A stretch of DNA of 64,000 nucleotides, taken from the NCBI GenBank assembly GCA_963771355.1, contig CAVYTA010000005.1, forward strand, positions 640,001 to 704,000. The letters are read 5' to 3'. Each line of letters begins with the position of its first letter. Within the stretch, counting starts at the first letter, position 1. The DNA is from an uncultured Candidatus Rokubacteria bacterium. Its GTDB lineage: Bacteria > Methylomirabilota > Methylomirabilia > Rokubacteriales > CSP1-6. Under the pieces are notes generated by a model, which worked only from the letters and a program-made list of their open reading frames with translations, made no database searches and was not told the DNA's origin. Positions 33,865 through 52,109 of this stretch are shown here, in pieces. Made by a program: the position numbers and the translations under genes.

Positions 33865-34326
33865 ATGGCCGTCACAGTGCTCGAGCTCCACCACCACGGC
33901 ATTCGCGTGAATCCCGACGAGACCGAGAAGTGCCTCGGTTTCTATCGTGACGTTCTCGGCTTGACGCCCGACCGCGGCCGGCCGAACATCCCCGGCATTC
34001 CCGGCTACTGGATGGACTGCGGGAACGATACGCAGATCCACATCATGGGCTGTGAGGGCCAGTCGCGGTACGCCAAGGGTCCCGACAAGGATCCCACCCA
34101 CTTCCACGTGGCCCTCGCGGTGGCGAACGTGCAGGAGACGAAGCAAGAGCTGGAGCGCATGGGAGTGCCCTTCTGGACCATCCAGTCCGTGGTGGGACCC
34201 CAGCTCGAGCAGATCTTCATGGACGACCCGCACGGCAACCTCGTCGAGCTACACCAGATCGACACCTGCCGCTGCCGCAAGTCCGCCCGCCCCGACGTGG
34301 TGACGCCGCCGGCATCGATGGCGTAG
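33865..34326 (+). CDS. VOC/glyoxalase-family protein
   Basis: LHHHGIRV, FYRDVLGL, QIH, HVALAV, DPHGNLVEL. Confidence 0.85.
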   Translation: MAVTVLELHHHGIRVNPDETEKCLGFYRDVLGLTPDRGRPNIPGIPGYWMDCGNDTQIHIMGCEGQSRYAKGPDKDPTHFHVALAVANVQETKQELERMGVPFWTIQSVVGPQLEQIFMDDPHGNLVELHQIDTCRCRKSARPDVVTPPASMA

Positions 34327-34329
34327 TCG

Positions 34330-35532: not shown

Positions 35533-35536
35533 GCGC

Positions 35537-36496: not shown

Positions 36497-36504
36497 CGCC
36501 CCCG

Positions 36505-37305
36505 GTGTCCGTCGGCGCGTCCGGCCTCCTCTTCCTCAAGCTGCTGGTCACGCCCGCCCTGATCGGCGCGGCGAGCCTCGCCGGCCGGCGCTGGGGGCAG
36601 GGAGTGGGCGGGGTGATCGTGGCCCTGCCGCTCACCTCCGGGCCCATCGCCTTCTTCCTCGTGCTGGAGCACGGCGCGGCCTTCGCCGCCGGCGCTGCGC
36701 TGGGCTCGCTGGCGGGCGCGCTGGCTCAGGGCGCCTTTTGCCTGGGCTATGCCGTGCTCGCCTTCCGTTATGGCTGGCCCGTCGCCTTCGCGGGCGGGGC
36801 GCTCGCCTTCGCCGCGGCGGGCGCCGCGCTGCAGGTGCTGGCCCTGCCGCTCGCGCCGCTCACCGCGGTGGTGATGGGCGGCCTGGGCCTGGCCGTGCTT
36901 GTCATGCCGCGCGGCGCGGAGGCACGCCGGCCGACCCCGCCGCCCCGCTGGGACATACCCGCCCGGATGGTCGTCGCGACCGCTCTCGTTCTCGCGCTGA
37001 CGGCGGCCGCCGCCACGCTCGGCTCTCGGCTGAGCGGGCTTCTCGCGACATTTCCCGTCTACGCCGGCATCCTCGCCGTCTTCGCCCATGGGCAGGCGGG
37101 GCCAGGGCCGGCGACGCGCGCGTTGCGCGGACTGCTCGCCGGACTCTTCGGCTTCGGCGCCTTCTTCGTCGTCCTCGCCGCGCTCATCGAGCGCGGGGAA
37201 TTGGTCCACGCCTTCGGCGCGGCGCTGGCGGTGACCCTCGTCCTGCAGGGGGCCGCGCTCTGGATGGTACGCCCCCCTGCGCCTGGCGCAGCGCCGACTC
37301 GATGA
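36505..37305 (+). CDS. Hypothetical multi-pass membrane protein (internally duplicated)
   Basis: About 8-9 hydrophobic segments; RRWG..VGG..LPLTSGP in the first half echoed by LG.RLSGLLATFP in the second. Confidence 0.75.
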   Translation: MSVGASGLLFLKLLVTPALIGAASLAGRRWGQGVGGVIVALPLTSGPIAFFLVLEHGAAFAAGAALGSLAGALAQGAFCLGYAVLAFRYGWPVAFAGGALAFAAAGAALQVLALPLAPLTAVVMGGLGLAVLVMPRGAEARRPTPPPRWDIPARMVVATALVLALTAAAATLGSRLSGLLATFPVYAGILAVFAHGQAGPGPATRALRGLLAGLFGFGAFFVVLAALIERGELVHAFGAALAVTLVLQGAALWMVRPPAPGAAPTR

Positions 37306-37927
37306 GGGCGTCGACCATCCAGCGGGCCACCGTTTCCACCTCGCGATAGCTCGAGCCCCAGATGTCACGCAGCACCACGTACGACTCGATGCCGTAGATC
37401 AGCGACAGGGCCTTGATGAGCCGCCCGTAGGTCCGTTCGCCCAAGGTGGCGCGCAGGGGCGCGGCCGCCCGGTGCAGCATGTAGCGACGGTGACCTCGCC
37501 GGTAGGGCTCCTCCTCGAGCAGCCCCATGCGTTGCAGGGACTCGTGCTCCAGCGAGAGCTGGAGCGCCGCCCGCATGTGGGGCTCGAACTGCTTGAAGAG
37601 GGGGAAGGTCTTGTCGAACAGCTCGCGAACCCGCTGGAGGCCGTCGCGGGGGCCGGGCTCGAAGCGGCGCACGGGGGCGAGCGCCTGGCCCACCACGGCG
37701 GTGACGAGCGCGCTCCGGCTCGGGAAGTACCGGTAGGCGGTCGCGCGCGAGACGCGGGCCTTGGCCGCGACTTCCGGTACCGAGGGAATGCGGCCGCGCT
37801 GGACGAGGGTCATCGCCTGCGCGAGCAGGAGCCGGTAGGTCCGGGCGCGTGGACCGCGCTCGGCCCCGGGCGGCTGCACCCAGCCGAGGCCGGGCGGAGC
37901 AACAAGCGACTTGACAAAGGGCCCCAC
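37184..37927 (-). CDS. TetR/AcrR-family transcriptional regulator (start uncertain, may be GTG 37879)
   Basis: HTH motif SVPEVAAKARVSRATAYRYFPS; divergent from the amidohydrolase operon. Confidence 0.85.
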   Translation of the reverse strand: MGPFVKSLVAPPGLGWVQPPGAERGPRARTYRLLLAQAMTLVQRGRIPSVPEVAAKARVSRATAYRYFPSRSALVTAVVGQALAPVRRFEPGPRDGLQRVRELFDKTFPLFKQFEPHMRAALQLSLEHESLQRMGLLEEEPYRRGHRRYMLHRAAAPLRATLGERTYGRLIKALSLIYGIESYVVLRDIWGSSYREVETVARWMVDALIESALRQAQGGVPSRARPPAGRGSPPAPRRRRGPIPRAR

Positions 37928-37969
37928 CGGCCCCTAGTCTCGCACAGCCGCATGAGACACGTGTCTCAT
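37911..37969 (+). promoter_or_regulatory. Promoter plus perfect 18-bp palindromic operator
   Basis: TTGACA (37911-37916), 18 bp, TAGTCT (37935-37940), then ATGAGACACGTGTCTCAT (37952-37969). Confidence 0.75.
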
Positions 37970-38023
37970 TCTGCGCGGCACGACGCGGCGCGGCGCGCGC
38001 GGGTCACGCTCGAGGAGGAGCCC

Positions 38024-39310
38024 ATGGCCAACGTCCTCTTCACGAACGTCCGGATCCTGGATGCCGGCGGCGCCGTGCCTTACCCCGGCGAGGTGCTGGT
38101 GCAGGGCAATCGCATCACGCGGGTGGCACGGGGGGCGCGCGCGCTGCCCACCGGCGGGGTGACCACGGTGGACGGCGGCGGTGCCACCCTCATGCCCGGT
38201 CTGGTGGAGGCACATACCCACTTCTCCTGGAACGATCAGCCCGGGCTCAGCGAGATCCAGCGCATGCCCACCGAGGAGCACATCCTCTGGTGTGCCCACA
38301 TCGCCAAGCGCTACCTCGACATGGGCTGGACGTCCTGCATCGGCGCCGCCACCGCCAAGCCGCGGCTCGACGTGGTGATCCGGAACGCCATCGAGTCGGG
38401 CCAGATCCCCGGCCCGCGCTATCTCGCGGCCAGCCAGGAGATCACCGTGCCCGGCGGCCTCGGGGACGAGACCCTCCCGCACCTGCCCTATCCGGAGTTC
38501 AGCTTCGGCGCCATCGTCAACGGTCCCGAGGAGATGCGGAAGACGGTGCGGATGTTCCTCAAGTACGGCGTGGACACCGTGAAGCTGAACCTCTCCGGCG
38601 AGTACATCGCGGGCATCCCCGCGGAGTTCACGCCGATGACCGACGAGGAGATCGCGGTCGCGGTGAAGGAGGCCCACGTGCGGGGCAAGCGGGTGTCCGC
38701 CCACGCGCGGTCCGCGGAGTCGGTGAAACAGTGCGTGCGCCACGGCATCGAGATCATCTACCACGCGAGCTTCGCCGACGAGGAAGCGCTCGACATGCTG
38801 GAGGCGCGGAAGGACCGGCACTTCGTGGCCCCCGGCATCGCGTGGCTGATCAACACCTCGTTCCACGCCGCCGAGTGGGGCATCTCGCCGGAGTCGGCGA
38901 AGGCCATGGGCTATCACCGCGAGCTGGAGGTTGCCTGCGAGACGCTGAAGAAGATGCACAAGCGCGGCATCCGCGTGCTGCCCGGCGGCGACTACGGATT
39001 CGCCTGGATCAAGCACGGCACCAATGCCAAGGACCTCGAGTACTTCGTCTCCCACCTGGGCTTCACGCCCATGGAGGCGCTCCGCGCCGCGACCTTCTAC
39101 GGCGGGCAGATCATGCTGCGGGGCGGGGAGCTGGGCCAGGTCAAGGAGGGCTTCCTCGCCGACCTCCTCCTCGTGGACGGCGACCCCGTGGCCAACGTTG
39201 CTTTGCTCCAGGATCCCAAGCGCATCCTCGGCGTGATGAAGGACGGCGCCTTTCACAAGGACCCCCCGGGTCGCGCCGCGCGCAGTCGCTGGAGCCTCCC
39301 CGCCGCCTGA
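38024..39310 (+). CDS. Metal-dependent amidohydrolase, paralogue 1
   Basis: GAGGAGGAG RBS; MPGLVEAHTH, VKL, AHAR, IYHA, GGDYG, ADLLLVDGDP. Confidence 0.9.
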   Translation: MANVLFTNVRILDAGGAVPYPGEVLVQGNRITRVARGARALPTGGVTTVDGGGATLMPGLVEAHTHFSWNDQPGLSEIQRMPTEEHILWCAHIAKRYLDMGWTSCIGAATAKPRLDVVIRNAIESGQIPGPRYLAASQEITVPGGLGDETLPHLPYPEFSFGAIVNGPEEMRKTVRMFLKYGVDTVKLNLSGEYIAGIPAEFTPMTDEEIAVAVKEAHVRGKRVSAHARSAESVKQCVRHGIEIIYHASFADEEALDMLEARKDRHFVAPGIAWLINTSFHAAEWGISPESAKAMGYHRELEVACETLKKMHKRGIRVLPGGDYGFAWIKHGTNAKDLEYFVSHLGFTPMEALRAATFYGGQIMLRGGELGQVKEGFLADLLLVDGDPVANVALLQDPKRILGVMKDGAFHKDPPGRAARSRWSLPAA

Positions 39311-39375
39311 GGCGCGGCGCCGCGCATGCCGACCCAGTTCATCGCTATGCCCAGCGCATGTAAGAGGAGCGAGCC

Positions 39376-40665
39376 ATGACGAGCGTGCTCTTCACCAACG
39401 TACGGGTTCTCGACGGGACAGGCACGCCGCCCTATGCCGGCGAGGTGCTGGTACAGGGGAACCGGGTCGCGCGGGTGGCCCGGGGCACCCGGGCTCTCCC
39501 CGCCGCCGGCGTGACGGTGATCGACGGCGCCGGCGCCACCCTCATGCCCGGCATGGTCGAGGCCCACACCCACTTCTCCTGGAACGACGCGGCGGGGCTC
39601 TCCGACCTCCAGCGCCTGCCGCTGGAAGAGCACGTGCTCTGGTCGGCCACGGTGGCCAAGCGCTACCTCGAGGCCGGCTGGACCTCCTGCGTGGGCGCGG
39701 CCTGCGCCAAGCCGCGGCTGGACGTGGTGACCCGCAACGCCATCAACCAGGGGCTCATCCCCGGGCCGCGCTACCTCGCGGGCAGCCAGGAGATCACGGT
39801 GGCGGGCGGCCTCGGCGACGAGACGCTGCCCCATCTGCCGTTTCCCGAGTTCAGCTTCGGCGTGATCGTGAGCGGGGCCGAGGAGATGCGCAAGGTGGTG
39901 CGGATGTTCCTCAAGTACGGGGTGGACCACGTCAAGCTCAACCTCTCGGGCGACAACTTCACGCAGACCTCGCCCGCCGGCACCACCTGGATGAGCGACG
40001 AGGAGGTCGGCATCGCGGTGCGGGAGGCGAAGATGCGCGGCAAGCGCGTGGCCGCCCACGCGCGGTCGTGCGAGTCCGTCAAGCAGTGCGTGCGCCACGG
40101 CATCGAGATCATCTACCACGCGAGCTTCACCGACGAGGAAGCCCTCGACATGCTGGAGGCCAACCGCGACCGCCACTTCGTGGCGCCCGGTATCGGCATC
40201 CTCGTGGCCATGCTCGACCACGCCGCGCCCTGGGGCATCACCCGCCAGAAGGCGGTGGAGATGGGCTACGAGGTGGAGCTGGCCGCCGCCGTCGACTCCC
40301 TCCGGAAGATGCACAAGCGCGGCATCCGCGTGCTGCCGGGTGGCGACTACGGCTTCGCCTTCACCCCGCACGGCGAGAACGCCCGCGACCTCGAGTACTT
40401 CGTGAAGTACCTCGGGATGACGCCGATGGAGGCGATCCTGTCGGCCACGCGCCACGGCGGCGAGATCATGATGAAGGGCGGCGAGCTCGGCCAGCTCAAG
40501 GACGGCTATCTCGCCGACCTGATCCTGGTCGACGGGGATCCCCTCGCCAATCTGAGCCTCCTGCGCGACCCGTCCAAGCTCCTCGCGGTGATGAAGGACG
40601 GCGTGTTCTACAAGGAGCCCGAGATCCGCTCCGCCCAGTCCCGCTGGGGCCGCTCGGTGGCCTGA
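39376..40665 (+). CDS. Metal-dependent amidohydrolase, paralogue 2
   Basis: MPGMVEAHTH, VKL, AHAR, IYHA, GGDYG, ADLILVDGDP; collinear with the previous gene. Confidence 0.9.
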   Translation: MTSVLFTNVRVLDGTGTPPYAGEVLVQGNRVARVARGTRALPAAGVTVIDGAGATLMPGMVEAHTHFSWNDAAGLSDLQRLPLEEHVLWSATVAKRYLEAGWTSCVGAACAKPRLDVVTRNAINQGLIPGPRYLAGSQEITVAGGLGDETLPHLPFPEFSFGVIVSGAEEMRKVVRMFLKYGVDHVKLNLSGDNFTQTSPAGTTWMSDEEVGIAVREAKMRGKRVAAHARSCESVKQCVRHGIEIIYHASFTDEEALDMLEANRDRHFVAPGIGILVAMLDHAAPWGITRQKAVEMGYEVELAAAVDSLRKMHKRGIRVLPGGDYGFAFTPHGENARDLEYFVKYLGMTPMEAILSATRHGGEIMMKGGELGQLKDGYLADLILVDGDPLANLSLLRDPSKLLAVMKDGVFYKEPEIRSAQSRWGRSVA

Positions 40666-40674
40666 GGCCGACCG

Positions 40675-41619
40675 GTGCCGCGATTCTGGCGCTGGTTCTG
40701 GGTGGTGGTCCTGGGCGTGCCCGTGGCCGCGTTCACCATCTGGGGGCTGGTCGACAACGCCAAGCTCTTCTGCACCACCGCGCTCAACGGACTCACCCTG
40801 GCCGCGCTGTACTTCCTGGTGGCCAGCGGCTTCACCCTCGTCTTCGGGCTCATGCGCAACGTCAACCTGGCGCATGGCTCCCTGTATCTCCTCGGCGCCT
40901 ACGTGGGCTATATGGTCGGCGACAAGACCGGATCCTGGCTCCTCGCCGTCGCCGCCGGCTTCGCCAGCGCCGCGCTGTTCGGACTCGTCTTGCAGGTGAC
41001 GGTGTTCCGCTTCATGCAGGGGCAGGATCTGCGCCAGACCCTGGTCACCATCGCGCTCTCGATCATGCTCGCGGACGTGCTCCTGTGGATCTTCGGCGGC
41101 GAGATCTACCAGTTCGACCCGCCGCGCTGGATCTTCGGGCGGACGCCGCTGCCACTGGTGCAGGTGTACCCGACCTACCGGCTGGTGGTGCTGGCGATCT
41201 CGGCCGCCATCGGCGTCCTCCTCTGGCTGTTCCTCAACCGCACCCGCGTGGGGATGATGATCCGCGCCGGGGTGGACGATCGCGCCATGCTCGCCGCCGC
41301 CGGCGTCAACGTGCAAGCGGTGTTCGCCATCACCTTCGCCATCGGCGCTGGGCTGGCCGGATTCGCCGGGGTGGTGGGCGGCACCGCGCTCTCCATCGCG
41401 CCCGGCGAGGACACCCGCTATCAGCTCGCCTCGCTGGTGGTGGTGATCGTGGGCGGCATGGGCAGCGTGGTGGGCGCGGCCATCGGCGCCGCCCTCATCG
41501 GGGTGGCCGAGCAGTTCGGCCTGGCCTACGCGCCCACCTACAGCGTGGTGTTCACCTTCGTCATCATGGCGCTGGTGCTGGCCTTTCGGCCCCAGGGCAT
41601 CCTCGGGAGGCGCGCATGA
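40675..41619 (+). CDS. Liv-family ABC permease (LivH-like)
   Basis: GFTLVFG, VNLAHGSLYLLG, GMMIRA, IVGGMGS, RPQG. Confidence 0.88.
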   Translation: MPRFWRWFWVVVLGVPVAAFTIWGLVDNAKLFCTTALNGLTLAALYFLVASGFTLVFGLMRNVNLAHGSLYLLGAYVGYMVGDKTGSWLLAVAAGFASAALFGLVLQVTVFRFMQGQDLRQTLVTIALSIMLADVLLWIFGGEIYQFDPPRWIFGRTPLPLVQVYPTYRLVVLAISAAIGVLLWLFLNRTRVGMMIRAGVDDRAMLAAAGVNVQAVFAITFAIGAGLAGFAGVVGGTALSIAPGEDTRYQLASLVVVIVGGMGSVVGAAIGAALIGVAEQFGLAYAPTYSVVFTFVIMALVLAFRPQGILGRRA

Positions 41620-42764
41620 GCGCGTCCCAGTGGCGAAAGGCCATGAACGCCGGTGCCGGGCGCACCGCCTGGCCGCGCACCGCCGCCGCGCCGGCTCCCC
41701 CGGGGATGGCCGCGAGGCCCGTGCGAGGCGCCGCCACGGACCCTGGCGCGCACTGGCTCCGGTGGATCGGGGGGCGGGTGCGCGCGCGTCACGTGCTCGT
41801 GCTCCTCGCGGCGCTGGCCTACCCAGCGGTGGCGCCGCCGTTCTTCACCTTCCAGATCGGCGCGCAGGCGCTTGCCCTGGGGCTGATCGCGCTCTCCCTC
41901 ACGTTCCTCGCGGGCTACGGCGGCATGGTGTCGCTGGCCCAGATGACGGTGGCGGGCATCGCCGGGTACATGTACGCGATCTTCGCCACCAGCGGCACCG
42001 AGGTCAGCCTCGGCTGGCCGTGGGGGCTGGCGGTGGTTCTGGCCCTTGCCATCGCCACGGTGTGCGGGACCCTCATCGGCTGGTTCTCGGTGCGCACCGA
42101 GGGCATCTACACCATCATGATCACGCTCGCCATCGGGGTCGCCTTCTTCTATCTCGTCCAGCAGAACTACTCGCTCTTCAACGGCTTCCAGGGATTCCAG
42201 TCGGTGAAGTCGCCGCGCGTGCTCGGCGTGGAGCTGCGCGATCCGGTGCCCTTTTACTATCTCGCGCTCTTCTGGGCGCTCGCCGGGTACTTCGGCGTGA
42301 AGTATCTCCTGCGTGCGCCTTTCGGGGTGGCGCTGCAGGGCATCCGCGACAATCCACGGCGCATGGCCGCGCTGGGCTTCAACGTCACCGCTCACCGCGT
42401 CGCCGCCTATGCAGTGGCCGGCCTCATCGCCGCGGTGGGCGGGATCCTCATGGTCTGGTACAACGGGCTGGTGTCGCCGGGCTCGGTAGGCACGAGCTGG
42501 CTCATCAATATTCTCATCATCGCCGTGCTCGGCGGGATGCGACATCCCATCGGGCCCTTCATCGGGGCGATCGTGTTCGTGCTGCTCCAGACCTTCGCCG
42601 TCGATTTCGTGGACCGCGAGCGGTTTAACCTGCTCATCGGCGGCATTTTCCTGATCATCGTGCTGTTCTCGCCCGACGGCCTGCTCGGCTGGTGGGCGGG
42701 CGGCCGCGCCCGCCTGCGCGGGACATCGGCGCAGGGGCGATGGGGTCGCCGCGTCGAGACATGA
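41616..42764 (+). CDS. Liv-family ABC permease (LivM-like)
   Basis: GYGGMVSLAQ, IYTIMITLA, APFG..GIRDN, LGG..IGP, SPDG. Confidence 0.88.
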   Translation: MSASQWRKAMNAGAGRTAWPRTAAAPAPPGMAARPVRGAATDPGAHWLRWIGGRVRARHVLVLLAALAYPAVAPPFFTFQIGAQALALGLIALSLTFLAGYGGMVSLAQMTVAGIAGYMYAIFATSGTEVSLGWPWGLAVVLALAIATVCGTLIGWFSVRTEGIYTIMITLAIGVAFFYLVQQNYSLFNGFQGFQSVKSPRVLGVELRDPVPFYYLALFWALAGYFGVKYLLRAPFGVALQGIRDNPRRMAALGFNVTAHRVAAYAVAGLIAAVGGILMVWYNGLVSPGSVGTSWLINILIIAVLGGMRHPIGPFIGAIVFVLLQTFAVDFVDRERFNLLIGGIFLIIVLFSPDGLLGWWAGGRARLRGTSAQGRWGRRVET

Positions 42765-42820
42765 GCCGAAGCTTCCACCCACGCAGCCCCCGGGCTGCGT
42801 TCACCACGAAGGAGAAGACG

Positions 42821-44074
42821 ATGACGTCACTCACCAGGCAGTGCATGCGGATGCTCGCGGTCGCGGCGATCGCCGTGACGGTGGGGGGCACCGCCGACGC
42901 CCAGCAGGTGGTCAAGATCGGCCTGCTCGCCACCCTGGAAGGCCCCTTCGCGGCGGGCGGCCAGGACGGCATGCGGGGCGCGGAGCTGGCGGTGAAGCAG
43001 CGCTACGGCACGGTCGCGGGCAAGAAGATCGAGATCATCAAGGCCTCGTCGGACGCGAAGCCCGACGTGGCCGTCAACGCGACCCGGAAGCTCGTGGAGC
43101 AAGACAAGGTCGACATCATGGTCGGCCCCCTCTCCGGCTCCGAGGGCATCGCGGTGAAGAACTACTCGAAGTCGCAGCCGAACATCACCTTCATCAACGG
43201 CTCGTCGGGCGCGCAGGCCACCACGCTCCAGGATCCGTCGCCCAACTTCTTCCGCTTCAATACCGAAGGGGCGCAGTGGATGGTGGGCCTGGGCGAGTAC
43301 GCCTTCAAGGACAAGGGATACAAGAAGATGGCCCTGATCGCCGAGGACTACGCCTTCCCGTATTCCCAGGTGCAGGGCTTCATGACCGAGTACTGCAAGG
43401 CGGGCGGCCGCGTCACCCACAAGGCCTGGGTCCCGCTCGGCGGCAAAGACTACTCGTCCGTGATCGCCAAGCTGCCGGGCGACGTCGACGCGCTCCTGGT
43501 GGTGCTGGGCGGCGCGGACGCGGTGAACTTCCTCACCCAGTACGAGCAGGCGGGCGGCAACAAGCCCATGGTGGGCGGCTCCATCACCGTCGACCAGACC
43601 GTGCTCAACTTCAAGGGCAAGCGGCGCGAGTCGCTCCTCGGCACGCCGTCGGCGGGCCCCATCGCCGACAGCTACGAGGGCGGCGAGTGGAAGAATTTCG
43701 TGGCCGACTACAAGGCGAACTTCAAGGACGGCTTCCCCAGCCCGTCGCTCTTCGCCTACGTCTACTACATCAACATGAAGGCGGCGCTGGACGGTCTCGA
43801 CGCGGTCAAGGGCGACCTCTCCGGCGGCCAGGCGAAGTATCGCGAGGCCCTCAAGAACCTCAAGCTCCAGACGCCGACGGGTGTCGTGACCCTGGACGAA
43901 AACCGCCAGGCCATCGGCACCACCTTCGTCACCGAGGTGGCCAAGGGCGCCGACGGCGTCTACTACAACAAGGTCGTGAAGGTGGTGCCGAACGTCAATC
44001 AGCGGCTGGGCATGTCCAAGGCCGACTTCGACAAGATCGGGCTCGGCTCCCGGGACGTCCCGAACTGCCCGTAA
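42821..44074 (+). CDS. Liv-family ABC substrate-binding protein
   Basis: AAGGAG RBS; signal peptide (ADA-Q); KIGLLATLEGPFA, GPLSG, EDYAF. Confidence 0.9.
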   Translation: MTSLTRQCMRMLAVAAIAVTVGGTADAQQVVKIGLLATLEGPFAAGGQDGMRGAELAVKQRYGTVAGKKIEIIKASSDAKPDVAVNATRKLVEQDKVDIMVGPLSGSEGIAVKNYSKSQPNITFINGSSGAQATTLQDPSPNFFRFNTEGAQWMVGLGEYAFKDKGYKKMALIAEDYAFPYSQVQGFMTEYCKAGGRVTHKAWVPLGGKDYSSVIAKLPGDVDALLVVLGGADAVNFLTQYEQAGGNKPMVGGSITVDQTVLNFKGKRRESLLGTPSAGPIADSYEGGEWKNFVADYKANFKDGFPSPSLFAYVYYINMKAALDGLDAVKGDLSGGQAKYREALKNLKLQTPTGVVTLDENRQAIGTTFVTEVAKGADGVYYNKVVKVVPNVNQRLGMSKADFDKIGLGSRDVPNCP

Positions 44075-44081
44075 CTCGAGC

Positions 44082-44111
44082 GCGGGGGTGAGGCTCAGGC
44101 CTCACCCCCGC
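44082..44111 (+). repeat. GC-rich stem-loop after the SBP gene (possible mRNA stabiliser or attenuator)
   Basis: GCGGGGGTGAGGC-tcag-GCCTCACCCCCGC; no U-tract. Confidence 0.6.
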
Positions 44112-44117
44112 TTCGCC

Positions 44118-44912
44118 ATGGCATCCATCACCGAGCTACGTCGCGAGCACCAGACGCCGATCGCGTCGGGGGACGCTCTCGTCCTGGAGGGCGTCACCCG
44201 CACGTTCGGCGCGCTCAAGGCCATCGAGGACGTGTCGCTCTCCGTCGCCGCGGGCGAGCGCCGCGCCCTGATCGGGGCCAACGGCGCCGGCAAGACCACG
44301 CTCTTCAACGCCGTGACCGGCGACTTCCCGCCCACCGCGGGCACGGTGCGCTTCTTCGGCGAGGACGTCACCGCGCTGGCCCCGCACGAGCGGATCCGCA
44401 TGGGCCTGCGCCGCACCTACCAGTCCTCGCTCCTCTGCCGCGAGCTCACGGTCGCCGAGAATCTCTTTCTCTCGGTGCGGGGGGTGGCCCGTGGCCGCTT
44501 CGGCCTGCTGCGCCCACGGCCGTCGCACCCGTCCCGCGCCGCCACCCGGGATCTCCTCGACCGCGTGCGCCTGGGCGCGGTCGCTGACCAGCCGGTCGCC
44601 TCGCTCTCCCACGGCCAGCAGCGCCAGCTCGAGATCGGGATGGCGCTGGCAGGGGCGCCGCGCCTCATCCTCTTCGACGAGCCCGCGGCGGGACTGTCCC
44701 CCGGGGAGCGGCGGGAGCTGGTGGCGCTGCTCACCGCGCTGCCGCCCCACATGGGCTACATCATCATCGAGCATGACCTCGACGTCGCCTTGCGGGTCGT
44801 CGAGCGCGTCACCGTGATGCACAACGGGCACGTGCTCAAGCACGGCACGCCCGACGAGATCGCGGGCGACGCCGAGGTGCAGGCCATCTACATCGGCGGG
44901 GGACGCCACTGA
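44118..44912 (+). CDS. Liv-family ABC ATP-binding protein (LivG-like)
   Basis: [27 protein letters not shown]. Confidence 0.9.
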
Positions 44913-47206
44913 TGGCCTGGTTCTCGCGCGGGCGGACGCGGCGGACCGCGCGTCCGGTCCTCCAGGTGGAGCGACTCGACGTCCACTACGGCCGCGCCCA
45001 TGCGCTCCAGGAAGTATCGCTCACCCTGGACCACGGCGTGATCGCGGTGGTCGGCCGCAACGGCATGGGCAAGACCACGCTCTGCAACGCCATCACCGGG
45101 CTCGTGCCCGCCGCCGGCAGCGTGCGGCTCGCCGGCGAGGAGATCCTCGGCCTGCCCCCCCACGTCATCACCGAGCGGGGTGTCGGCTACGTGCCGCAGG
45201 GCCGTCGGGTCTGGCCGTCGCTCAGCGTCGACGAGCATCTCCGTCTCGCCGCGGGCGGCCAGGAGGGGCCGTGGACGGTGGCCCGCGTCTACCAGATCTT
45301 CCCGCGCCTGGCCGAGCGGCGGCGCAACGGCGGGGCAGAGCTGTCCGGGGGCGAGCAGCAGATGCTGGCCATCGCGCGCGCGCTCCTCTTCAATCCTATG
45401 CTCCTGGTGATGGACGAGCCCACCGAGGGCCTGGCCCCGGTGATCGTCCAGCAAGTTGCGGACATGCTGAAGCACCTGGCGGGGGATGGCGAGATCTCGG
45501 TGCTGCTCATCGAGCAGAACCTGGGCGTGGCCATCGACGTGGCCGACACCGTCGACGTCATGGTCAACGGACGTATCGCGCGCTCCATGCCGGCGGCCGA
45601 GCTGGCGGCCGACCGTGCGCTCCAGCAGCAGCTCCTCGGCGTGAACTCCGGAACCGACGATGCGCCGGATGAGACGCCCGCGCTTGCGGACGGCGCCTTT
45701 CCACCGCGCGCGGAGACGGACGAGGTGCGGGTCTACACCGTGCGGCGCTCCGCCGACGACACGCCGGCGGGAGAGGCCGCCGCTGCTCCCGCTGAACGGG
45801 CGGTCCGCGGCTTCACCCGCTGGAACTCGGCCGACGCGCTGGGGGCGCCGCGCGACCGCTTGCTGGAGGGGCGGTCCGACACCATGACCCCGCCGCCGTC
45901 GCTGACCGATGCCGCCGCCACCCTGGCCGCCAGCGGGCGCGAGGCACGAGTCATCGAGTTCCCGGTGGCCGCCACCATCGGCCGCGCCGCCTACATCGCG
46001 GGGACCTTCGACACCAAGGGTCGCGAGCTCTTCTTCCTGCGCAATTGCCTCGAGAAGCTGGGCATGCGCACGGTGACGGTGGATCTGGCCACCTCGGGCA
46101 AGCCGTCTCCCGCGATGATCAATCCCCGGGAAGTCGCGCGACATCACCCCCGGGGCGAGCGGGCCGTGTTCACGGGGGATCGGGGCACCGCGGTGAGCGA
46201 GATGGCGGTGGCCTTCGAGCACTTCGTGGTCCGGCGCCGCGACCTCGGCGGCCTCATCTCCGCGGGCGGCTCGGGCGGCACCGCGCTGGCCACCCCGGCC
46301 ATGCGCCGGCTGCCCATCGGCGTGCCCAAGCTGATGGTCTCCTCGGTGGCCTCCGGCGACGTGCGGCCCTACGTGGGCCCCTCCGACCTCTGCATGATGT
46401 ACTCCGTCACCGACGTCGCCGGCATCAACCGGATCTCCGAGCGGGTGCTCGCCAATGCCGCCCACGCGCTGGCCGGGATGATCGCGTACGCGCGCCCCTC
46501 CGACGCGCCGTCCGACGCCAAGCCGGCGATCGGGCTCACCATGTTCGGCGTCACCACGCCCTGCGTGCAGGCGGTGACCCGGGCCCTCGAGGAGCGTTAT
46601 GACTGCCTCATCTTCCACGCCACCGGCACCGGCGGGCAGTCGATGGAGAAGCTCGTCGACTCGGGGCTCCTCGCCGGAGTGATCGACGTCACCACCACCG
46701 AGATCGCCGACGAGATCGTGGGCGGCGTGCTCTCGGCCGGGCCCGGCCGTCTCGACGCCATCGCCCGCGCCCGCGTGCCCTACGTCGGCTCGTGCGGCGC
46801 GCTCGACATGGTGAACTTCTGGGCCATGGACACCGTGCCCGCGCAATTCCGCGCGCGGAACCTCTACCGGCACAATGCGAACGTGACCCTGATGCGCACC
46901 ACTCCCGAGGAGTGCGCGCGCATCGGCCGGTTCATCGCCGACAAGCTCAACCGCATGGAGGGACCGGTGCGCTTCCTCATCCCCGGCGGCGGCGTCTCCC
47001 TCATCGACGCGCCCGGCCAGCCCTTCTGGGATCCCGCCGCCGACACGGCGCTCTTCGACGCCATCACCTCCGGCGTGCGCGCGACGTCGAGCCGCCAGAT
47101 CATCCGGCTGCCGCACAACGTGAACGATCCGGAGTTCGTGGACGCCCTGGTGGCGGCGTTCGGCGAGGTCTCCCGCGAGCCGGTGGCGGCGGCGGGGGCG
47201 AGGTAG
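44912..47206 (+). CDS. LivF-like ABC ATPase fused to a Tm-1-like (UPF0261) domain
   Basis: N-terminal [24 protein letters not shown]; low-complexity linker; C-terminal [65 protein letters not shown]. Confidence 0.88.
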
Positions 47207-47210
47207 AGCC

Positions 47211-48041
47211 ATGGCGCGCATTCCCCGCCAGGACATTCTCAAGCGCTTCCGCGGCATGATCCGCCGCCGCGAGCCCATCATCGGCGGCGGGGCGGGCACG
47301 GGCCTCTCCGCCAAGTGCGAGGAGGCCGGCGGCATCGACCTCATCGTCATCTACAACTCCGGCCGCTATCGCATGGCCGGCCGCGGCTCGCTCGCCGGCC
47401 TCATGGCGTACGGCAATGCCAACGACATCGTACTGGACATGGCCCGGGAGGTGCTGCCGGTGGTCAAGCGCACCCCGGTGCTCGCGGGGGTCAACGGGAC
47501 CGACCCCTTCATGATCACCGAGGACTTCCTGCCGCGGCTGGCCGCGCTGGGCTTCTCGGGGGTCCAGAACTTCCCCACCGTGGGCCTCTTCGACGGCACC
47601 ATCCGCGCCCAGCTCGAGGAGACGGGCATGGGCTACGGTCTCGAGGTCGAGATGATCCGCGCCGCCCACGCCCTCGACCTCCTCACCACGCCCTATGTCT
47701 TCTCGGAGGAGAGCGCGGCGGACATGGCCAAGGCGGGCGCGGACATCGTGGTCTGTCACCTCGGGCTCACCACCGGCGGCGCCATCGGCGCGGAGACCGC
47801 GCTCACCCTGAAGGACTGCGTGGGACGCATCGACGCGTGGGCGGAGGCCGCCCGCGTGGTGAATCCCGACGTGATCGTGCTCTGCCACGGCGGGCCCATC
47901 GCCCGTCCGGCCGACGCGCGTTACATCCTCCGGCACTGCCGGCGGTGCCACGGCTTCTACGGCGCCTCCAGCATGGAGCGGCTGCCCACCGAGGCGGCTC
48001 TGACGGAGACGACCCGAAAGTTCAAGCGCATCCGGCGCTAA
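47211..48041 (+). CDS. PEP-hydrolase-like TIM-barrel protein (Tm-1 C-terminal homologue)
   Basis: [65 protein letters not shown]. Confidence 0.9.
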
Positions 48042-48102
48042 AGGAAGGAACCCACAGCGATGACAACCAGAGAACACCGTCTGAAGAAGGTGGTGGGGGG
48101 GA

Positions 48103-48133
48103 ATGGGGGAGGAGCGGCGCCGCTCCCCCCCAT
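48103..48133. repeat. REP-like hairpin
   Basis: ATGGGGG-A-GGAGCGG / CCGCTCCCCCCCAT arms with one bulged A. Confidence 0.55.
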
Positions 48134-48151
48134 CTCCAAAGGAGGCCTGTC

Positions 48152-49858
48152 ATGACCGGAGCACAGTTCGGCGCGGTGATCCTCGGGCTGATCGCGGTGG
48201 CCGTGGTGGTGGCGGTCATCGTGTGGCTGATGAACTGGCTGTACCTGCGCTCATCCAAGGAGCGCGCCTTCGTGCGCACCGGGCTGGGCGGCCAGAAGGT
48301 GGTCATGAACGGCGGCGCGTTCGTATTGCCCATCGTTCATGAAGTCGTGCCGGTCAACATGAACACCCTGCGGCTCGAAGTGTCGCGCGGCCGGGACAAG
48401 GCGCTCATCACCAAGGACCGCATGCGGGTGGACGTGGTCTCCGAGTTCTACGTGCGCGTCCAGGCGGGGGTGAACGCCATCGCCTCGGCCGCCCAGACCC
48501 TGGGTCAGCGGACGCTGGAGCCGGAGACGCTCAAGGAGCTGGTCGAGGGCAAGTTCGTGGACGCCCTTCGTACCGTCGCCGCGGAGATGACCATGGAGGA
48601 GATGCACGAGAAGCGCGGGGAATACGTCAAGCGGGTGAAGGCGGTGGTGGCGGGCGACCTCCTGCAGAACGGGCTGGAGCTGGAGGCGGTGTCGCTCACC
48701 CAGTTCGACCAGACGGGCATGGAGTTCTTCAATCCCTCGAACGCCTTCGACGCGGAAGGCCTCACGCGGCTCACCGACCAGATCGAGCGTCGGAAGAAGA
48801 TCCGCAACGACATCGAGCAGGACACCATGATCCAGGTCCGGAACAAGAACCTGGAGACCGAGCGCCAGGCCCTGGACATCGACCGCGAGCTGGAGTACGC
48901 GCGGCTGGCCCAGGAGCGTGAGCTCGAGGTGCAGCGCGCCACCCAGCGGTCCGACGTGGCGCGGCAGCGGGCGGACCGGGAGCAGGAGGCCGAGCGCGCG
49001 CAGATCTCCGCCCGGGAGGCGGTGGACCGCGCCCGCATCGCCGCGGAGCGTTCGGTCGAGGAAGACCGCATCACCCGGGAGCGCGAGGTGCAACAGCTCG
49101 AGATCGCGCGGCGGCAGGCCATCGAGCTGGCGGAGCAGCATCGCGCCATCGCGGTGGCCGAGCAGTCCAAGGCCCAGTCGGAGGCGCAGGGCGCCGCGGA
49201 CTTCGCCCGGGCCAAGGCGGTGGCGGAGGAGGAGCGCGTCTTCACCACGCGTGAGACGGAGATGGCGGAGCGCCGCAAGCGCATCGACCTGATCGGCGCC
49301 GAGCAAGAGGCGGAGCGCCACGCGCTCCGGGTTCGGATCGGGGCCGAGGCGGAACGGGCCGCCGCGGGCGACCGGGGCGCGGCGGTGCGCGCCGAAGCCG
49401 AGGCCCATGCCGATGCGGAGAAGGTGAGGGCCCTGGCCTCCCGCATCCGGAACGAGGTGGAGGCGGAAGGGCTGCGGCTCATGAACGAGGCCGCCAATAT
49501 CTTGACGCCGGAAGCGCGCCTCTCCGCGATGCGCATCCGGCTCATCGACAAGCTCGAGGGCATCGTGCGCGAGTCGGTGAAGCCCATGGAACGGATCGAG
49601 GGCATCAAGATCCTCCAGGTGGACGGGCTCGGCGGCGGGGGCGGAGGGCGCGGCGACGGGCGCGAAGGGGCAGGTCTCGCCGACAGCGTGGTCAACTCGG
49701 CCCTCCGCTTCCGGGCCCAGGCTCCGCTGGTGGACCAGCTCCTGCGCGAGATCGGCGTGGATGCCGGCGACGTGGGCAAGGCCGCCCGCGGCCTCCTCGA
49801 CCGCAGCCAGACCGCGCTCCCCACCACCCCCGCCCCAAACGGCCCCACCGAAGAATAA
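48152..49858 (+). CDS. Flotillin/SPFH-domain protein (YqiK-like)
   Basis: AAGGAGG RBS; N-terminal TM; AFVRTGLGG, LITKDRMRVDV, GKFVDALR, NAFDAEG; Ala/Glu coiled coil; SVKPMERIEGIKILQ. Confidence 0.9.
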   Translation: MTGAQFGAVILGLIAVAVVVAVIVWLMNWLYLRSSKERAFVRTGLGGQKVVMNGGAFVLPIVHEVVPVNMNTLRLEVSRGRDKALITKDRMRVDVVSEFYVRVQAGVNAIASAAQTLGQRTLEPETLKELVEGKFVDALRTVAAEMTMEEMHEKRGEYVKRVKAVVAGDLLQNGLELEAVSLTQFDQTGMEFFNPSNAFDAEGLTRLTDQIERRKKIRNDIEQDTMIQVRNKNLETERQALDIDRELEYARLAQERELEVQRATQRSDVARQRADREQEAERAQISAREAVDRARIAAERSVEEDRITREREVQQLEIARRQAIELAEQHRAIAVAEQSKAQSEAQGAADFARAKAVAEEERVFTTRETEMAERRKRIDLIGAEQEAERHALRVRIGAEAERAAAGDRGAAVRAEAEAHADAEKVRALASRIRNEVEAEGLRLMNEAANILTPEARLSAMRIRLIDKLEGIVRESVKPMERIEGIKILQVDGLGGGGGGRGDGREGAGLADSVVNSALRFRAQAPLVDQLLREIGVDAGDVGKAARGLLDRSQTALPTTPAPNGPTEE

Positions 49859-49862
49859 CTGC

Positions 49863-50300
49863 ATGATCAAGGTCTACGTTTCCAGCGTCATCGAGGCGCC
49901 GGCGGACGCGGTATGGGCGCAGATTCGCGACTTCAACGGCCTGCCGAAGTGGACGCCGTTCGTGGCCGAGTCCCGCATCGAAGGGGGACTCGCCGCCGAC
50001 AAGATCGGCTGCATCCGGAACTTCCGTCTCAAGGATGGCGGCGTCATCCGCGAGCAGCTCCTGACGCTGTCCGACTACGACTTCCAGTGCACCTATTCCA
50101 TTCTCGAGAGTCCCATGGGCGTGGCGAACTACGTGGCCACGCTCAAGCTCACCCCGGTGACGGACGGCGACCGCACCTTCGCCGAGTGGTGGGCGGAGTT
50201 CGATTGCGCCCCCGAGCGGGAAGGGGAGCTCGCGCAGTCCATCGGTCAGGGCGTGTTCCAGGTGGGACTGGACGCGCTCAAGGGTCTGTTCCGGCGGTAG
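49863..50300 (+). CDS. SRPBCC/START-like (polyketide cyclase 2/MxaD-like) protein
   Basis: VIEAPADAVWAQIRDFN, GCIRNF, IREQLL, PVTDGDRTF. Confidence 0.88.
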   Translation: MIKVYVSSVIEAPADAVWAQIRDFNGLPKWTPFVAESRIEGGLAADKIGCIRNFRLKDGGVIREQLLTLSDYDFQCTYSILESPMGVANYVATLKLTPVTDGDRTFAEWWAEFDCAPEREGELAQSIGQGVFQVGLDALKGLFRR

Positions 50301-50310
50301 CCGGCGCCCC

Positions 50311-51780
50311 GTGGTCCGCGTCACCCGCTCGGCCGTGATCGACGCACCCATCGGACGCGTCTGGGCGGTGCTGCGCGACTTCAATAGCCATACCGCGTGG
50401 CATCCGGCGGTGGCCGAGTCCGAGATCGAGGGGGGCGATCCCCCGGATCAGGTGGGCTGCGTGCGCCGCTTCACCCTCCGGGACGGCCACCTCATCCGCG
50501 AGCAACTCCTGGGACTGTCCGACCAGGAGCACGTCTCCACCTACTGCATCCTCGACGCTACCCTGCCCATGCGGCGCTACGTGGCCACCGTCCAGCTCAA
50601 GCGGGTGACCGACGGCGACCGCACCTTCTGGCACTGGCAGTCCACCTTCGACGTGCCCCGCGGCCGGGAGCGGGAGTTCGAAGATCTCGTCGGCGTCGGC
50701 GTCTACGAGGGCGGCTTCGAGGGCCTGCGCGCGTATCTCCGTCGAGGAAACGATCAGCGCCGCACCGGATCGCCCGCGCATGCGTCGGGCGCATCCGGCG
50801 CTCTGCCCTCCCACGGCATCATCGTCTCCCGCTTCGGCGGCCCCGAAGTCTTGCAGCATCAACCGCTCTCCGCGCCGGCTCCCGGGCCCGGCGAGGTGCG
50901 CATTCGCCAGACCGCCGTCGGTGTCAACTACATCGACGTGTACGTGCGCGCCGGGCACTATCGCATGCTCGAGCCGCCGGCGCCCCTGGGCATGGAGGCG
51001 GCGGGCGAGGTGGTGGACGTCGGCGACGGCGTGCCGCACCTTCTGCCCGGCGACCGCGTGGCCTATGCCTGCCCCCCGCCCGGCGCCTATGTGAGCGTGC
51101 GCACCATGGCCGCCGCCCAGGTGGTGGTGCTGCCGGATCACGTCGGCGATGAGACGGCCGCCGCGGTGATGCTCAAGGGGATGACCGCCGAGTATCTGCT
51201 GCATCGGACGCATCGCGTGCGCGCGGGCGACACCGTGCTGGTGCACGCAGCCGCGGGCGGTGTCGGGCTCTTCCTGTGCCAGTGGGCACGCGCCCTGGGC
51301 GCGCAGGTGCTCGGCACGGTCTCCACCGAGGACAAGGCGCGGCGGGCGCGCGACCACGGCTGCGAGGCGCCCATCGTCACGCGGGATCACCGCTTCGCGC
51401 GCGCGGTGCGGGAGGCCACCGGCGGCCGCGGCGCCGACGTGATCTTCGACGGCCTCGGCCGCGCCGCCGCGGAGGAGAACCTGGAGGCCCTCGCCCTCTG
51501 CGGTCACTGGGTGAGCTACGGCCAGGCCACCGGGCCGCTGGAGGCGATCGCTGCCGAGCGGCTCAGCGCCAAGTCAGCGACCTTGAGCCGCCCCGTCCTC
51601 TTCCACTACACGGCCCAGCGCCCGGCGCTCGCCGAGATCGCGGACCGGGTCTTCACCGCGCTTCGCGACGGCGTGCTCCGTGTCGAGGTGCGCCATCGCT
51701 ACCCGCTCGCCGCCGCCGCGGAGGCGCACCGTGATCTCGAGGCCCGGCGAACCACGGGCCCGCTGCTGCTGCTGCCGTAG
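50311..51780 (+). CDS. SRPBCC domain fused to NADPH:quinone oxidoreductase (MDR, Qor-like)
   Basis: N-terminal IDAPIGRVWAVLRDFN...VTDGDRTF; C-terminal FGGPEVL, VGVNYID, GMEAAG, LKGMTA, HAAAGGVG, YGQATG. Confidence 0.88.
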   Translation: MVRVTRSAVIDAPIGRVWAVLRDFNSHTAWHPAVAESEIEGGDPPDQVGCVRRFTLRDGHLIREQLLGLSDQEHVSTYCILDATLPMRRYVATVQLKRVTDGDRTFWHWQSTFDVPRGREREFEDLVGVGVYEGGFEGLRAYLRRGNDQRRTGSPAHASGASGALPSHGIIVSRFGGPEVLQHQPLSAPAPGPGEVRIRQTAVGVNYIDVYVRAGHYRMLEPPAPLGMEAAGEVVDVGDGVPHLLPGDRVAYACPPPGAYVSVRTMAAAQVVVLPDHVGDETAAAVMLKGMTAEYLLHRTHRVRAGDTVLVHAAAGGVGLFLCQWARALGAQVLGTVSTEDKARRARDHGCEAPIVTRDHRFARAVREATGGRGADVIFDGLGRAAAEENLEALALCGHWVSYGQATGPLEAIAAERLSAKSATLSRPVLFHYTAQRPALAEIADRVFTALRDGVLRVEVRHRYPLAAAAEAHRDLEARRTTGPLLLLP

Positions 51781-51794
51781 CGTGTCGGCCCGCG

Positions 51795-52109
51795 CTACGG
51801 TGATCGGGTCGAGGGGCCGGGACCAGGGGCCCGTACGTCGAGCGTGTTCACGACCCGACGGACGCCCCCCACGGTCCGCGCCACGCTCTCCGCCCGCGTC
51901 TTCTGCTCGACCGACACGACGTCGCCGGTCAGGTACACCACCGACTGCCGGCTCAACACGCCGAGCCGGGTGAGGTTGGCGTCCTTCTCGGCCACGAGGC
52001 GAGCCTTCACCTCACTCTCGATCCGGGCATCCTGCCAGGGATCGACGGTGGCGCAGGCGCCGACGGCGACAACCAGACAGACGAGGAAGAGCGAGGTGCG
52101 CCGGTCCAT
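51795..52109 (-). CDS. BON-domain lipoprotein
   Basis: Lipobox-like VGAC; DARIESEVKARL, VYLTG, GVRRVVNTL. Confidence 0.85.
   Translation of the reverse strand: MDRRTSLFLVCLVVAVGACATVDPWQDARIESEVKARLVAEKDANLTRLGVLSRQSVVYLTGDVVSVEQKTRAESVARTVGGVRRVVNTLDVRAPGPGPSTRSP

What the first reader, a model, noticed from the sequence alone, without database searches (positions are those of the whole stretch)
44912..47206. ABC transporter ATPase covalently fused to a Tm-1-like domain
Seen: a complete LivF-type ATPase (Walker A, signature, Walker B), a roughly 100-aa low-complexity linker and a full UPF0261 domain in one 764-aa frame with no internal stop. Inference: the Tm-1-like domain sits at the cytoplasmic face of the importer, either acting on the substrate as it enters or regulating transport.
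Basis: partly seen in the sequence, partly recalled or inferred. Interest (0 to 1): 0.7.

Follow-up and report, generated by a model that had tools for sequence, protein, structure and literature searches.

The report
Importer motor tethered to orphan kinase
One of the two ATP-burning subunits of a bacterial nutrient importer is joined by a long, predicted-floppy tether to a complete Tm-1/MarK-family domain that likely phosphorylates the imported compound as it enters, an arrangement conserved in many soil and water bacteria that gives a concrete setting for finding out what this poorly understood enzyme family does.

Summary
The fusion is real. 44912-47206 is one 764-aa frame: an intact LivF-type ABC ATPase, a ~110-aa linker predicted to be disordered, and a full UPF0261 domain. 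An independent assembly spans the linker, there is no excess of internal starts, and 70 of 81 related loci are fused. It likely arose once, in a conserved operon (amidohydrolases, LivHMKG, PF09370 TIM barrel, flotillin, SRPBCC, quinone reductase) of Methylomirabilota and Proteobacteria. The domain keeps the ATP-site and phenol-binding residues of MarK, the only UPF0261 protein with shown activity (an aromatic kinase), but has a Tm-1-type pocket, so the substrate probably differs and is unknown. Best reading (0.5): an importer-tethered kinase that phosphorylates the incoming solute or its first product for the TIM barrel. The tether is dispensable: two-gene versions of the operon exist, and the kinase half decayed at least twice while the ATPase stayed intact. 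Flotillin accompanies 69 of 69 fused and 0 of 14 unfused loci. I found no paper describing the architecture, though databases hold it (often mislabelled 'permease'). This scan reported the same fusion earlier on other genomes.

The parts
44912..47206 (+). Fusion gene, 764 aa: LivF-type ABC ATPase + linker + UPF0261 (Tm-1/MarK family) domain
44957..45643 (+). LivF-type nucleotide-binding domain (aa 16-244), all catalytic motifs intact
   Evidence: 1JI0, 40% identity, TMt 0.90
45644..45976 (+). Ala/Pro/Arg/Glu-rich linker, predicted disordered (aa 245-355; 80-159 aa in relatives)
45725..45823 (+). Two conserved islands inside the linker (aa 272-279 and 299-304, the latter ending in Arg-Trp); binding partner unknown
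45986..47170 (+). UPF0261 domain (aa 359-753); D367/T368/K369, G546, H569, H654 match MarK D14/T15/K16, G195, H219, H304
47211..48041 (+). PF09370 PEP-hydrolase-like TIM barrel (68% identical to Mll9387, PDB 2P10; ICL/PEP-mutase superfamily fold); C-terminal half of plant Tm-1
48152..49858 (+). Flotillin (Band_7 + Flot); accompanies fused forms only
49863..50300 (+). SRPBCC / Polyketide_cyc2 protein
50311..51780 (+). SRPBCC domain fused to a quinone-oxidoreductase-like (ADH_N/ADH_zinc_N) domain
44088..44912 (+). LivG-type ATPase; its stop codon overlaps the fusion's ATG
42821..44074 (+). Peripla_BP_6 substrate-binding protein
41616..42764 (+). LivM-type permease
40675..41619 (+). LivH-type permease
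39376..40665 (+). Amidohydrolase 2 (nearest solved: Cc2672 carboxypeptidase / ochratoxinase group)
38027..39310 (+). Amidohydrolase 1 (71% identical paralogue of amidohydrolase 2)
37184..37927 (-). Divergent TetR regulator, conserved with the operon in close relatives

Best explanation
The gene encodes the LivF subunit of a branched-chain-type ABC importer carrying, on a tether predicted to be flexible, a complete UPF0261 domain that is likely an active small-molecule kinase and would phosphorylate the imported compound, or its first hydrolysis product, at the inner face of the membrane for the neighbouring TIM barrel to process. Shown: the architecture, the intact motifs and the operon. From the literature: one family member, MarK, turns ATP plus a phenolic OH into ADP plus an aryl phosphate and is a homodimer. 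Inferred: that this Tm-1-type subfamily is also a kinase; that its substrate carries a phenol- or enol-like OH but is not acetovanillone; that the PF09370 barrel (ICL/PEP-mutase fold) acts on the phospho-product; and that the tether stops a small membrane-permeant solute from leaking back out and fixes kinase:importer stoichiometry. The domain is an optional accessory, not a required part of the pumping cycle.
For: D367/T368/K369, G546, H569 and H654 align with MarK D14/T15/K16, G195, H219 and H304 (MarK residue roles read in PMC12624787). They are invariant in 70 of 70 close fusions and in all 37 fused rows of the tree set. DTK plus the His motif is present in 120 of 120 top homologues, and DTK in all 25 unbroken fused frames. 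The fold matches Tm-1 (TMt 0.86-0.90) and MarK 9MPY (TMt 0.63). All 37 fused domains fall in one 39-row clade, SH-aLRT 99. The operon is conserved from 93% down to 48% domain identity, with catabolic accessories: amidohydrolases, FAA hydrolase, alpha/beta hydrolase, SRPBCC, QOR, and Mo-hydroxylase genes in some loci. The TIM barrel lies within 6 kb of 66 of 69 fused loci. Several alphaproteobacterial loci carry a divergent regulator whose N-terminal domain is a distant PF09370-like barrel, which suggests the barrel binds a pathway metabolite. In the one decayed locus with context (L195), the kinase motifs, the C-lobe and the adjacent TIM gene were lost together. Phosphorylation as a trap after transport has precedent in PnuT (PMC5749112, search listing and start of abstract only).
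Against: No activity is shown for any member of the Tm-1-type subfamily. MarK is only the third-best structural relative (183 bits against 319 for Tm-1), and four MarK pocket residues differ (T196>V, F283>M, I285>N, H348>I). In MarK the ATP and substrate sites lie about 25 A apart and the mechanism is unresolved. ABC import is already ATP-driven and one-way (general knowledge), so trapping is needed only for a leaky solute. Two-gene versions of the same operon exist (L148, L184, L204, L205). Three fused loci with intact kinase motifs lack an adjacent TIM gene (L131, L132, L268). The substrate could not be identified.
Confidence: 0.5

Rival explanations
1. Passive operon fusion: the same kinase, but the join is a frozen stop-codon loss between adjacent genes that only keeps their expression coupled, and the location at the importer does not matter.
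For: Abutting two-gene operons exist; in L148 the LivF stop meets the UPF0261 start with no linker. Linker length varies 80-159 aa. The kinase half has decayed in-frame at least twice, which could reflect selection only to keep translation coupled to the downstream gene; in L195 the shortened fusion's stop overlaps the flotillin ATG.
Against: A ~110-aa linker with near-invariant Arg-Trp and Val-x-Arg islands was built and kept. Fission is rare: 1 clear case (L056) and 1 unresolved (L141) in a 39-row clade. Flotillin arrived with the fusion, in 69 of 69 fused against 0 of 14 unfused loci.
Confidence: 0.2
2. Allosteric regulator: the UPF0261 domain senses ATP or a cytoplasmic metabolite and tunes the ATPase, like the C-terminal regulatory domains of MalK, MetN or ModC (recalled), perhaps by docking through the linker islands.
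For: It sits at the C-terminus of an NBD. Seven full-length fusions keep the whole fold but have lost the catalytic residues (P0131, P0133, P0136, P0140, P0151, P0152, P0176), as a non-catalytic role would allow. Several keep the Arg-Trp island.
Against: Known regulatory domains are packed against the NBD (recalled), whereas this linker is predicted disordered, with pTM 0.53. The decayed domains are 19-45% identical to each other while their NBDs are 76-82% identical, which looks like relaxed selection. None turned up among the fused loci from the genome searches. Free LivF occurs in otherwise equal operons.
Confidence: 0.15
3. Assembly device: UPF0261 proteins are homodimers but each importer has one LivF, so tethered domains would dimerise between neighbouring importers and, with the flotillin, cluster them into a membrane microdomain; catalysis is secondary.
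For: MarK is a homodimer through its N-lobes (PMC12624787). Flotillin accompanies fused loci only (also absent from unfused L204 and L205). In L195 the N-lobe remnant and the flotillin were kept while the C-lobe and TIM were lost.
Against: The flotillin link rests on about one gain and one or two losses on the tree, not on 69 independent cases. Dimerisation of this subfamily and any contact with flotillin were not tested. Only one decayed locus has context.
Confidence: 0.12
4. Assembly artefact or internal start giving two proteins.
For: An ATG at 45884 has GGAGG 14 nt upstream. Three related loci are split inside the linker (L007, L010, L069).
Against: Those three are frameshifts with the linker still present, one with an intact copy in the same MAG, and L007 and L010 have other split genes too. 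An independent contig spans the linker. M325 is not conserved, and internal starts are at chance level. An ESM Atlas cluster of 2003 members carries both domains.
Confidence: 0.02

Closest known systems
MarK (Saro_1862), multiple aromatic kinase of Novosphingobium aromaticivorans, PDB 9MPY (PMC12624787)
   Same: Same two-lobed UPF0261 fold (E 7e-53; TMt 0.63). D14/T15/K16, G195, H219 and H304 are kept.
   Different: MarK is a stand-alone homodimer in an acvCDEF carboxylase operon, and its paper does not mention a transporter. Here the domain is fused to LivF and followed by a TIM barrel, and four pocket residues differ (T196>V, F283>M, I285>N, H348>I).
Tomato Tm-1 and plant Tm-1-like proteins (PDB 3WRV-3WRY; PMC5028733)
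   Same: Closest solved relative (E 3.5e-94; 41-43% structural identity), with the same pocket signature. The domain plus the next gene reproduce the UPF0261 + TIM-barrel order of the plant protein.
   Different: Plants fuse UPF0261 to the barrel; here it is fused to an ABC ATPase and the barrel is a separate gene. Tm-1's native metabolic role is unknown.
LivF ATPases of HAAT (branched-chain amino acid type) ABC importers, e.g. PDB 1JI0
   Same: All NBD motifs, and a LivH/LivM/SBP/LivG operon.
   Different: Ordinary LivF ends at about 240 aa; this one carries about 520 aa more. The substrate is probably not a branched-chain amino acid (inference from the operon).
Mll9387 of Mesorhizobium loti (PDB 2P10), PF09370
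   Same: 68% identical to the downstream TIM barrel.
   Different: A structural-genomics target titled 'putative phosphonopyruvate hydrolase'; no function was found in my searches.
Transport coupled to phosphorylation: PnuT/PnuC metabolic trapping (PMC5749112, listing only); PTS group translocation (recalled)
   Same: Phosphorylation of a solute right after entry.
   Different: Those are facilitators or PTS permeases, not ABC importers, and the Pnu kinases are separate proteins (recalled).

Membership tests
LivF / HAAT ABC importer ATPase | Intact Walker A, Q-loop, signature, Walker B, D-loop, switch | tested here: met
LivF / HAAT ABC importer ATPase | Operon with two BPD_transp_2 permeases, a Peripla_BP_6 binding protein and LivG | tested here: met
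LivF / HAAT ABC importer ATPase | ATP-driven uptake of a defined solute | not testable with these tools
   needs transport assays
UPF0261 (PF06792 + PF23189) | Both lobes above Pfam cut-offs; Tm-1/MarK fold | tested here: met
   (204 and 310 bits, cut-off 27)
MarK-type acetovanillone kinases | ATP-site D14/T15/K16 | tested here: met
   D367/T368/K369
MarK-type acetovanillone kinases | Phenol-binding G195, H219, H304 | tested here: met
   G546, H569, H654
MarK-type acetovanillone kinases | Acetovanillone pocket T196, F283, I285, H348 | tested here: not met
   V547, M633, N635, I698
MarK-type acetovanillone kinases | Co-localisation with acvCDEF/hpeCBAD carboxylase genes | tested here: not met
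   none among the 16 proteins of 33865-51780 scanned; the rest of the genome was not searched for them
MarK-type acetovanillone kinases | ATP-dependent phosphorylation of a phenol; homodimer | not testable with these tools
   needs biochemistry
Tm-1-like subfamily (TIM-barrel-linked UPF0261) | Tm-1-type pocket signature and an adjacent or fused PF09370 barrel | tested here: met
   in the 93-row set an adjacent barrel occurs almost only with this signature
Plant Tm-1-like proteins | UPF0261 and TIM barrel in one chain | tested here: not met
   separate genes, stop at 47206 and start at 47211

The most novel reading that the evidence does not exclude
A 'phosphorylating ABC importer': PTS-like group translocation built from an ABC pump and a tethered kinase. 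Obligate dimerisation of the kinase would cross-link neighbouring importers into a flotillin-scaffolded membrane metabolon that hands the phospho-product to a TIM barrel. Its substrate would also point to the unknown native function of the Tm-1-like gene found in nearly all land plants.
Probability: 0.2. Interest if true: 0.8.

Novelty: new variant of a known kind. Interest (0 to 1): 0.52.

Why it matters
UPF0261 got its first catalytic function only in 2025. Its TIM-barrel-linked branch, which includes the near-universal plant Tm-1-like gene, still has no known substrate. This fusion ties that branch to one importer with one binding protein and a fixed set of catabolic genes, so a ligand screen on the binding protein can name the substrate for the whole module. 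It would also be an unusual case of an enzyme covalently attached to an ABC importer's motor. Natural controls exist: two-gene operons, a fission product and independently decayed copies. Cultured carriers exist too (Variovorax paradoxus VAI-C, Shinella zoogloeoides Teo12, Yoonia sp. SS1-5). NCBI records name the protein 'ABC transporter permease', which is wrong.

Tried and rejected
(1) Complex prediction of the UPF0261 domain with the TIM barrel gave 'no answer', score 0.00; it is no evidence either way. (2) An internal start in the linker was rejected. The raw count first looked high (47 of 86 linkers against 18 in a control stretch), but synonymous resampling explained it. (3) The substrate could not be read from the binding protein. 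Nearest solved structures are 4ZPJ (E 1.5e-40), 4EY3/4EYG/4EYK, 8TG1 and 4EVQ. That the 4E-series bind hydroxybenzoates is recalled; a paper search did not confirm it, and similarity is low. (4) The idea that decayed fusions anchor a free active copy was not supported in the one context seen: L195 has no second UPF0261 gene in the 17.9 kb held. Searches for more decayed loci found none in the 401, 301, 44 and 286 genomes searched (motif checks). The decayed half of P0151 found only itself; a plasmid search gave 3 intact fusions. (5) The promoter/terminator scan was uninformative: 0 promoters, 4 terminator-like sites against 3.3 expected. (6) RNA run X15 holds scattered short contigs and shows neither expression nor strand. 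(7) The wide VIA-align fold search on the TIM barrel could not be run, and no NCBIfam scan was completed. (8) Literature searches: 'UPF0261' 8 papers, 'Tm-1-like' 10, 'phosphoenolpyruvate hydrolase family' 0, Tm-1 + ATP-binding + TIM-barrel + bacterial + ABC transporter 0, COG5441/COG5564/PF06792/PF09370/y4oU/mll9387 2, 'TIM-barrel signal transduction' 5. None of the listings or passages seen describes the fusion; subscription journals and supplements were not seen. The Tm-1 structure paper was not held, so Tm-1 ATP contacts come second-hand from the MarK paper. (9) MarK itself is not in the trees, because no call gave its full sequence as a record; it was compared through the alignment only.

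Full report
Observation. The stretch 44912-47206 is one open frame of 764 codons. Pfam places ABC_tran at 32-171 and the two UPF0261 lobes at 360-527 and 537-752. An AlphaFold2 model built on a 58-sequence alignment folds both domains confidently, leaves 245-329 and 343-355 under pLDDT 50, and has pTM 0.53, consistent with no fixed orientation between the domains. Foldseek matches the C-terminal part to tomato Tm-1 (TMt 0.86-0.90) and MarK (0.63), and the N-terminal part to LivF-type 1JI0.

It is not an artefact. A contig of run X1 covers the whole linker without a gap, and none of 4 runs lists an indel (contigs, not raw reads, and X1 may be the source sample). The 120 best of 7802 database hits are all 750-771 aa with both domains (the 7802 may include single-domain matches and were not counted as fusions). 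An ESM Atlas cluster of 2003 members carries both families. A search of GTDB with the UPF0261 domain alone kept the best 80 of 577 loci. With the window's own locus, 70 of 81 are fused, 7 are cut by contig ends, 3 are frameshifted inside a complete linker and 1 (L056) is a true stand-alone gene. M325 is not conserved, and SD-preceded starts in linkers are at chance level, 46 of 83 against 47.4.

Range and origin. A UPF0261 gene was found in 24 of 151 genomes of the window's phylum (the closest named records are Methylomirabilota/Rokubacteria). It was found in 48 of 401 genomes of Reyranella's class, 19 of them fused, and in 13 of 401 of an Alcaligenaceae MAG's class, 2 fused. Searches with whole fusions matched 8 of 301 genomes in that MAG's order, all fused, and 26 of 286 in one alphaproteobacterial family; of its 27 places, 25 are unbroken fused frames, 1 is broken and 1 is a free LivF. 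In a tree of 93 domains (close fused loci thinned to every fourth, partial domains left out), all 37 fused rows lie in one 39-row clade with SH-aLRT 99; L056 is nested inside and L141 is unresolved at its base (quick tree). In an ATPase tree of 76 rows, the free LivF proteins of two-gene operons (L148, L184, L204-L209) lie outside a 51-row fused group with support 93, one fused row (L123) being unresolved. One fusion followed by rare fission fits both trees; it was not formally tested with a root.

Neighbourhood. The order amidohydrolase(s), LivH, LivM, binding protein, LivG, fusion, PF09370 barrel, flotillin, SRPBCC, SRPBCC-QOR is kept almost unchanged in the close loci and, with some shuffling, down to 48% domain identity. 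Frequent additions are an FAA hydrolase (12 of the 41 loci), an alpha/beta hydrolase (11), a GntR regulator (10), Mo-hydroxylase genes, and a divergent regulator that begins with a distant PF09370-like barrel. This reads as a catabolic operon for one small, probably aromatic or heteroaromatic compound (inference). Among loci with at least 48% identity and enough flank, flotillin lies within 6 kb of 69 of 69 fused and 0 of 14 unfused domains (3 frameshifted loci set aside), and the barrel near 66 of 69 and 11 of 14. Because the fusion likely arose once, this is about one joint gain, not 69 independent cases. Unfused domains also sit beside other importers (a different HAAT system in L152/L153, sugar-type ABC genes in L143/L151), so the enzyme pair follows imported substrates whether fused or not.

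What the domain likely does. MarK of Novosphingobium aromaticivorans is an ATP-dependent kinase for phenolic ketones and aldehydes, a homodimer, and the first UPF0261 protein with a shown activity (PMC12624787; I read parts 1-4 of 8: abstract, results, discussion and start of methods, plus term searches). Its ATP-site D14/T15/K16 and phenol-binding G195/H219/H304 align with D367/T368/K369 and G546/H569/H654, which are invariant in 70 of 70 close fusions and all 37 fused tree rows. Its T196, F283, I285 and H348 do not match. The pocket is instead that of Tm-1 and of barrel-linked bacterial proteins. So it likely works like MarK but is not a MarK orthologue. The barrel is 68% identical to Mll9387 and folds like ICL/PEP-mutase enzymes. 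Its partnership with UPF0261 is known from plant fusions and co-evolution (PMC5028733, part 1 of 5 and passages) and from fungal phylogenetic profiles (PMC8963296, one passage). An aryl or enol phosphate would be a plausible ligand for a PEP-type barrel (inference).

Decayed copies. Among the 150 best 50%-identity representatives, seven full-length fusions of 672-720 aa keep an intact ATPase but have lost the catalytic Lys and both His equivalents. In four decayed pairs the ATPases are 76-82% identical and the UPF0261 lobes 19-45%; three intact pairs give 59-61% and 49-58%. Nine decayed rows (these seven plus two shortened ones) need four changes on the ATPase tree, at least two forced by strong branches, and a single origin is rejected (p-AU 0.002). 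They are rare: none appeared among the fused loci of the genome searches. The one with context, L195, has lost the C-lobe and the adjacent barrel, SRPBCC and QOR genes, but keeps the importer and an intact flotillin whose start overlaps its stop. This shows the pump can be kept without an active domain and ties catalysis to the barrel, on a single example. Three intact fusions without an adjacent barrel (L131, L132, L268) weaken that tie; all three genomes hold a second UPF0261 gene.

Mechanism. Most likely (0.5), the importer brings in a small solute, the tethered kinase phosphorylates it or its first hydrolysis product at the membrane, and the barrel takes the product on. Tethering would matter most for a neutral, membrane-permeant phenol or enol that otherwise leaks back. 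Rivals are a passive fusion (0.2), an allosteric regulator (0.15), a dimer-driven clustering device working with the flotillin (0.12, not exclusive) and an artefact (0.02).

Novelty. The parts are known, and the architecture is in databases under automatic names. My ten paper searches found no description of it (listed under Tried and rejected; subscription journals and supplements unseen). Earlier notes of this scan report the same fusion on other genomes. I had reached the MarK link before reading them; the prompt to count flotillin in fused against unfused loci came from e1-5133251. A word search of those notes found none on decayed copies. Verdict: a real, new variant of known kinds, mechanism inferred, interest 0.52.

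Noticed in passing
P0131, P0133, P0136, P0140, P0151, P0152 (WP_386911075, Agrobacterium sp.), P0176; L195:10731-12245: Fusions with an intact LivF but a catalytically decayed or shortened UPF0261 half, arisen at least twice; L195 lost the adjacent TIM barrel but kept flotillin.
   Followed up: partly
L148:8640-10618, L184, L204, L205: The same importer operon with LivF and UPF0261 as two abutting genes, no linker and no flotillin; likely the ancestral state.
   Followed up: yes
L125, L128, L129, L130, L137, L148 (e.g. L130:581-2317): Divergent regulators of about 560-630 aa that begin with a distant PF09370-like barrel followed by what looks like a sigma-54-type ATPase region (by eye, not scanned), next to a second ~230-aa barrel-like gene.
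   Followed up: partly
P0163: UPF0261 fused to a C-terminal Cupin_5 (DUF985) domain, another fusion partner of the family.
   Followed up: no
L157-L180 and L188-L193: At least five further UPF0261 subfamilies with distinct pocket signatures and no adjacent TIM barrel, several beside HAAT importers; candidate kinases for other substrates.
   Followed up: partly
L140, L155: Tandem pairs of UPF0261 genes around a TIM barrel, both with altered His304-equivalent sites; a possible heterodimer.
   Followed up: no
window:33865-37305: Glyoxalase-like, acyl-CoA dehydrogenase-like, 3-hydroxyisobutyrate-dehydrogenase-like genes and a 266-aa membrane protein with no Pfam hit lie just upstream; only the membrane protein recurs, in L043.
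   Followed up: no
window:52111-55470: A 1119-aa ORF that by eye resembles DUF748/AsmA-type proteins, preceded by a 104-aa BON-like lipoprotein (51795-52109); not scanned.
   Followed up: no
L213 (CP063167.1, Variovorax paradoxus VAI-C), L211, L212: Cultured strains carry the full operon; NCBI names the fusion 'ABC transporter permease'.
   Followed up: partly
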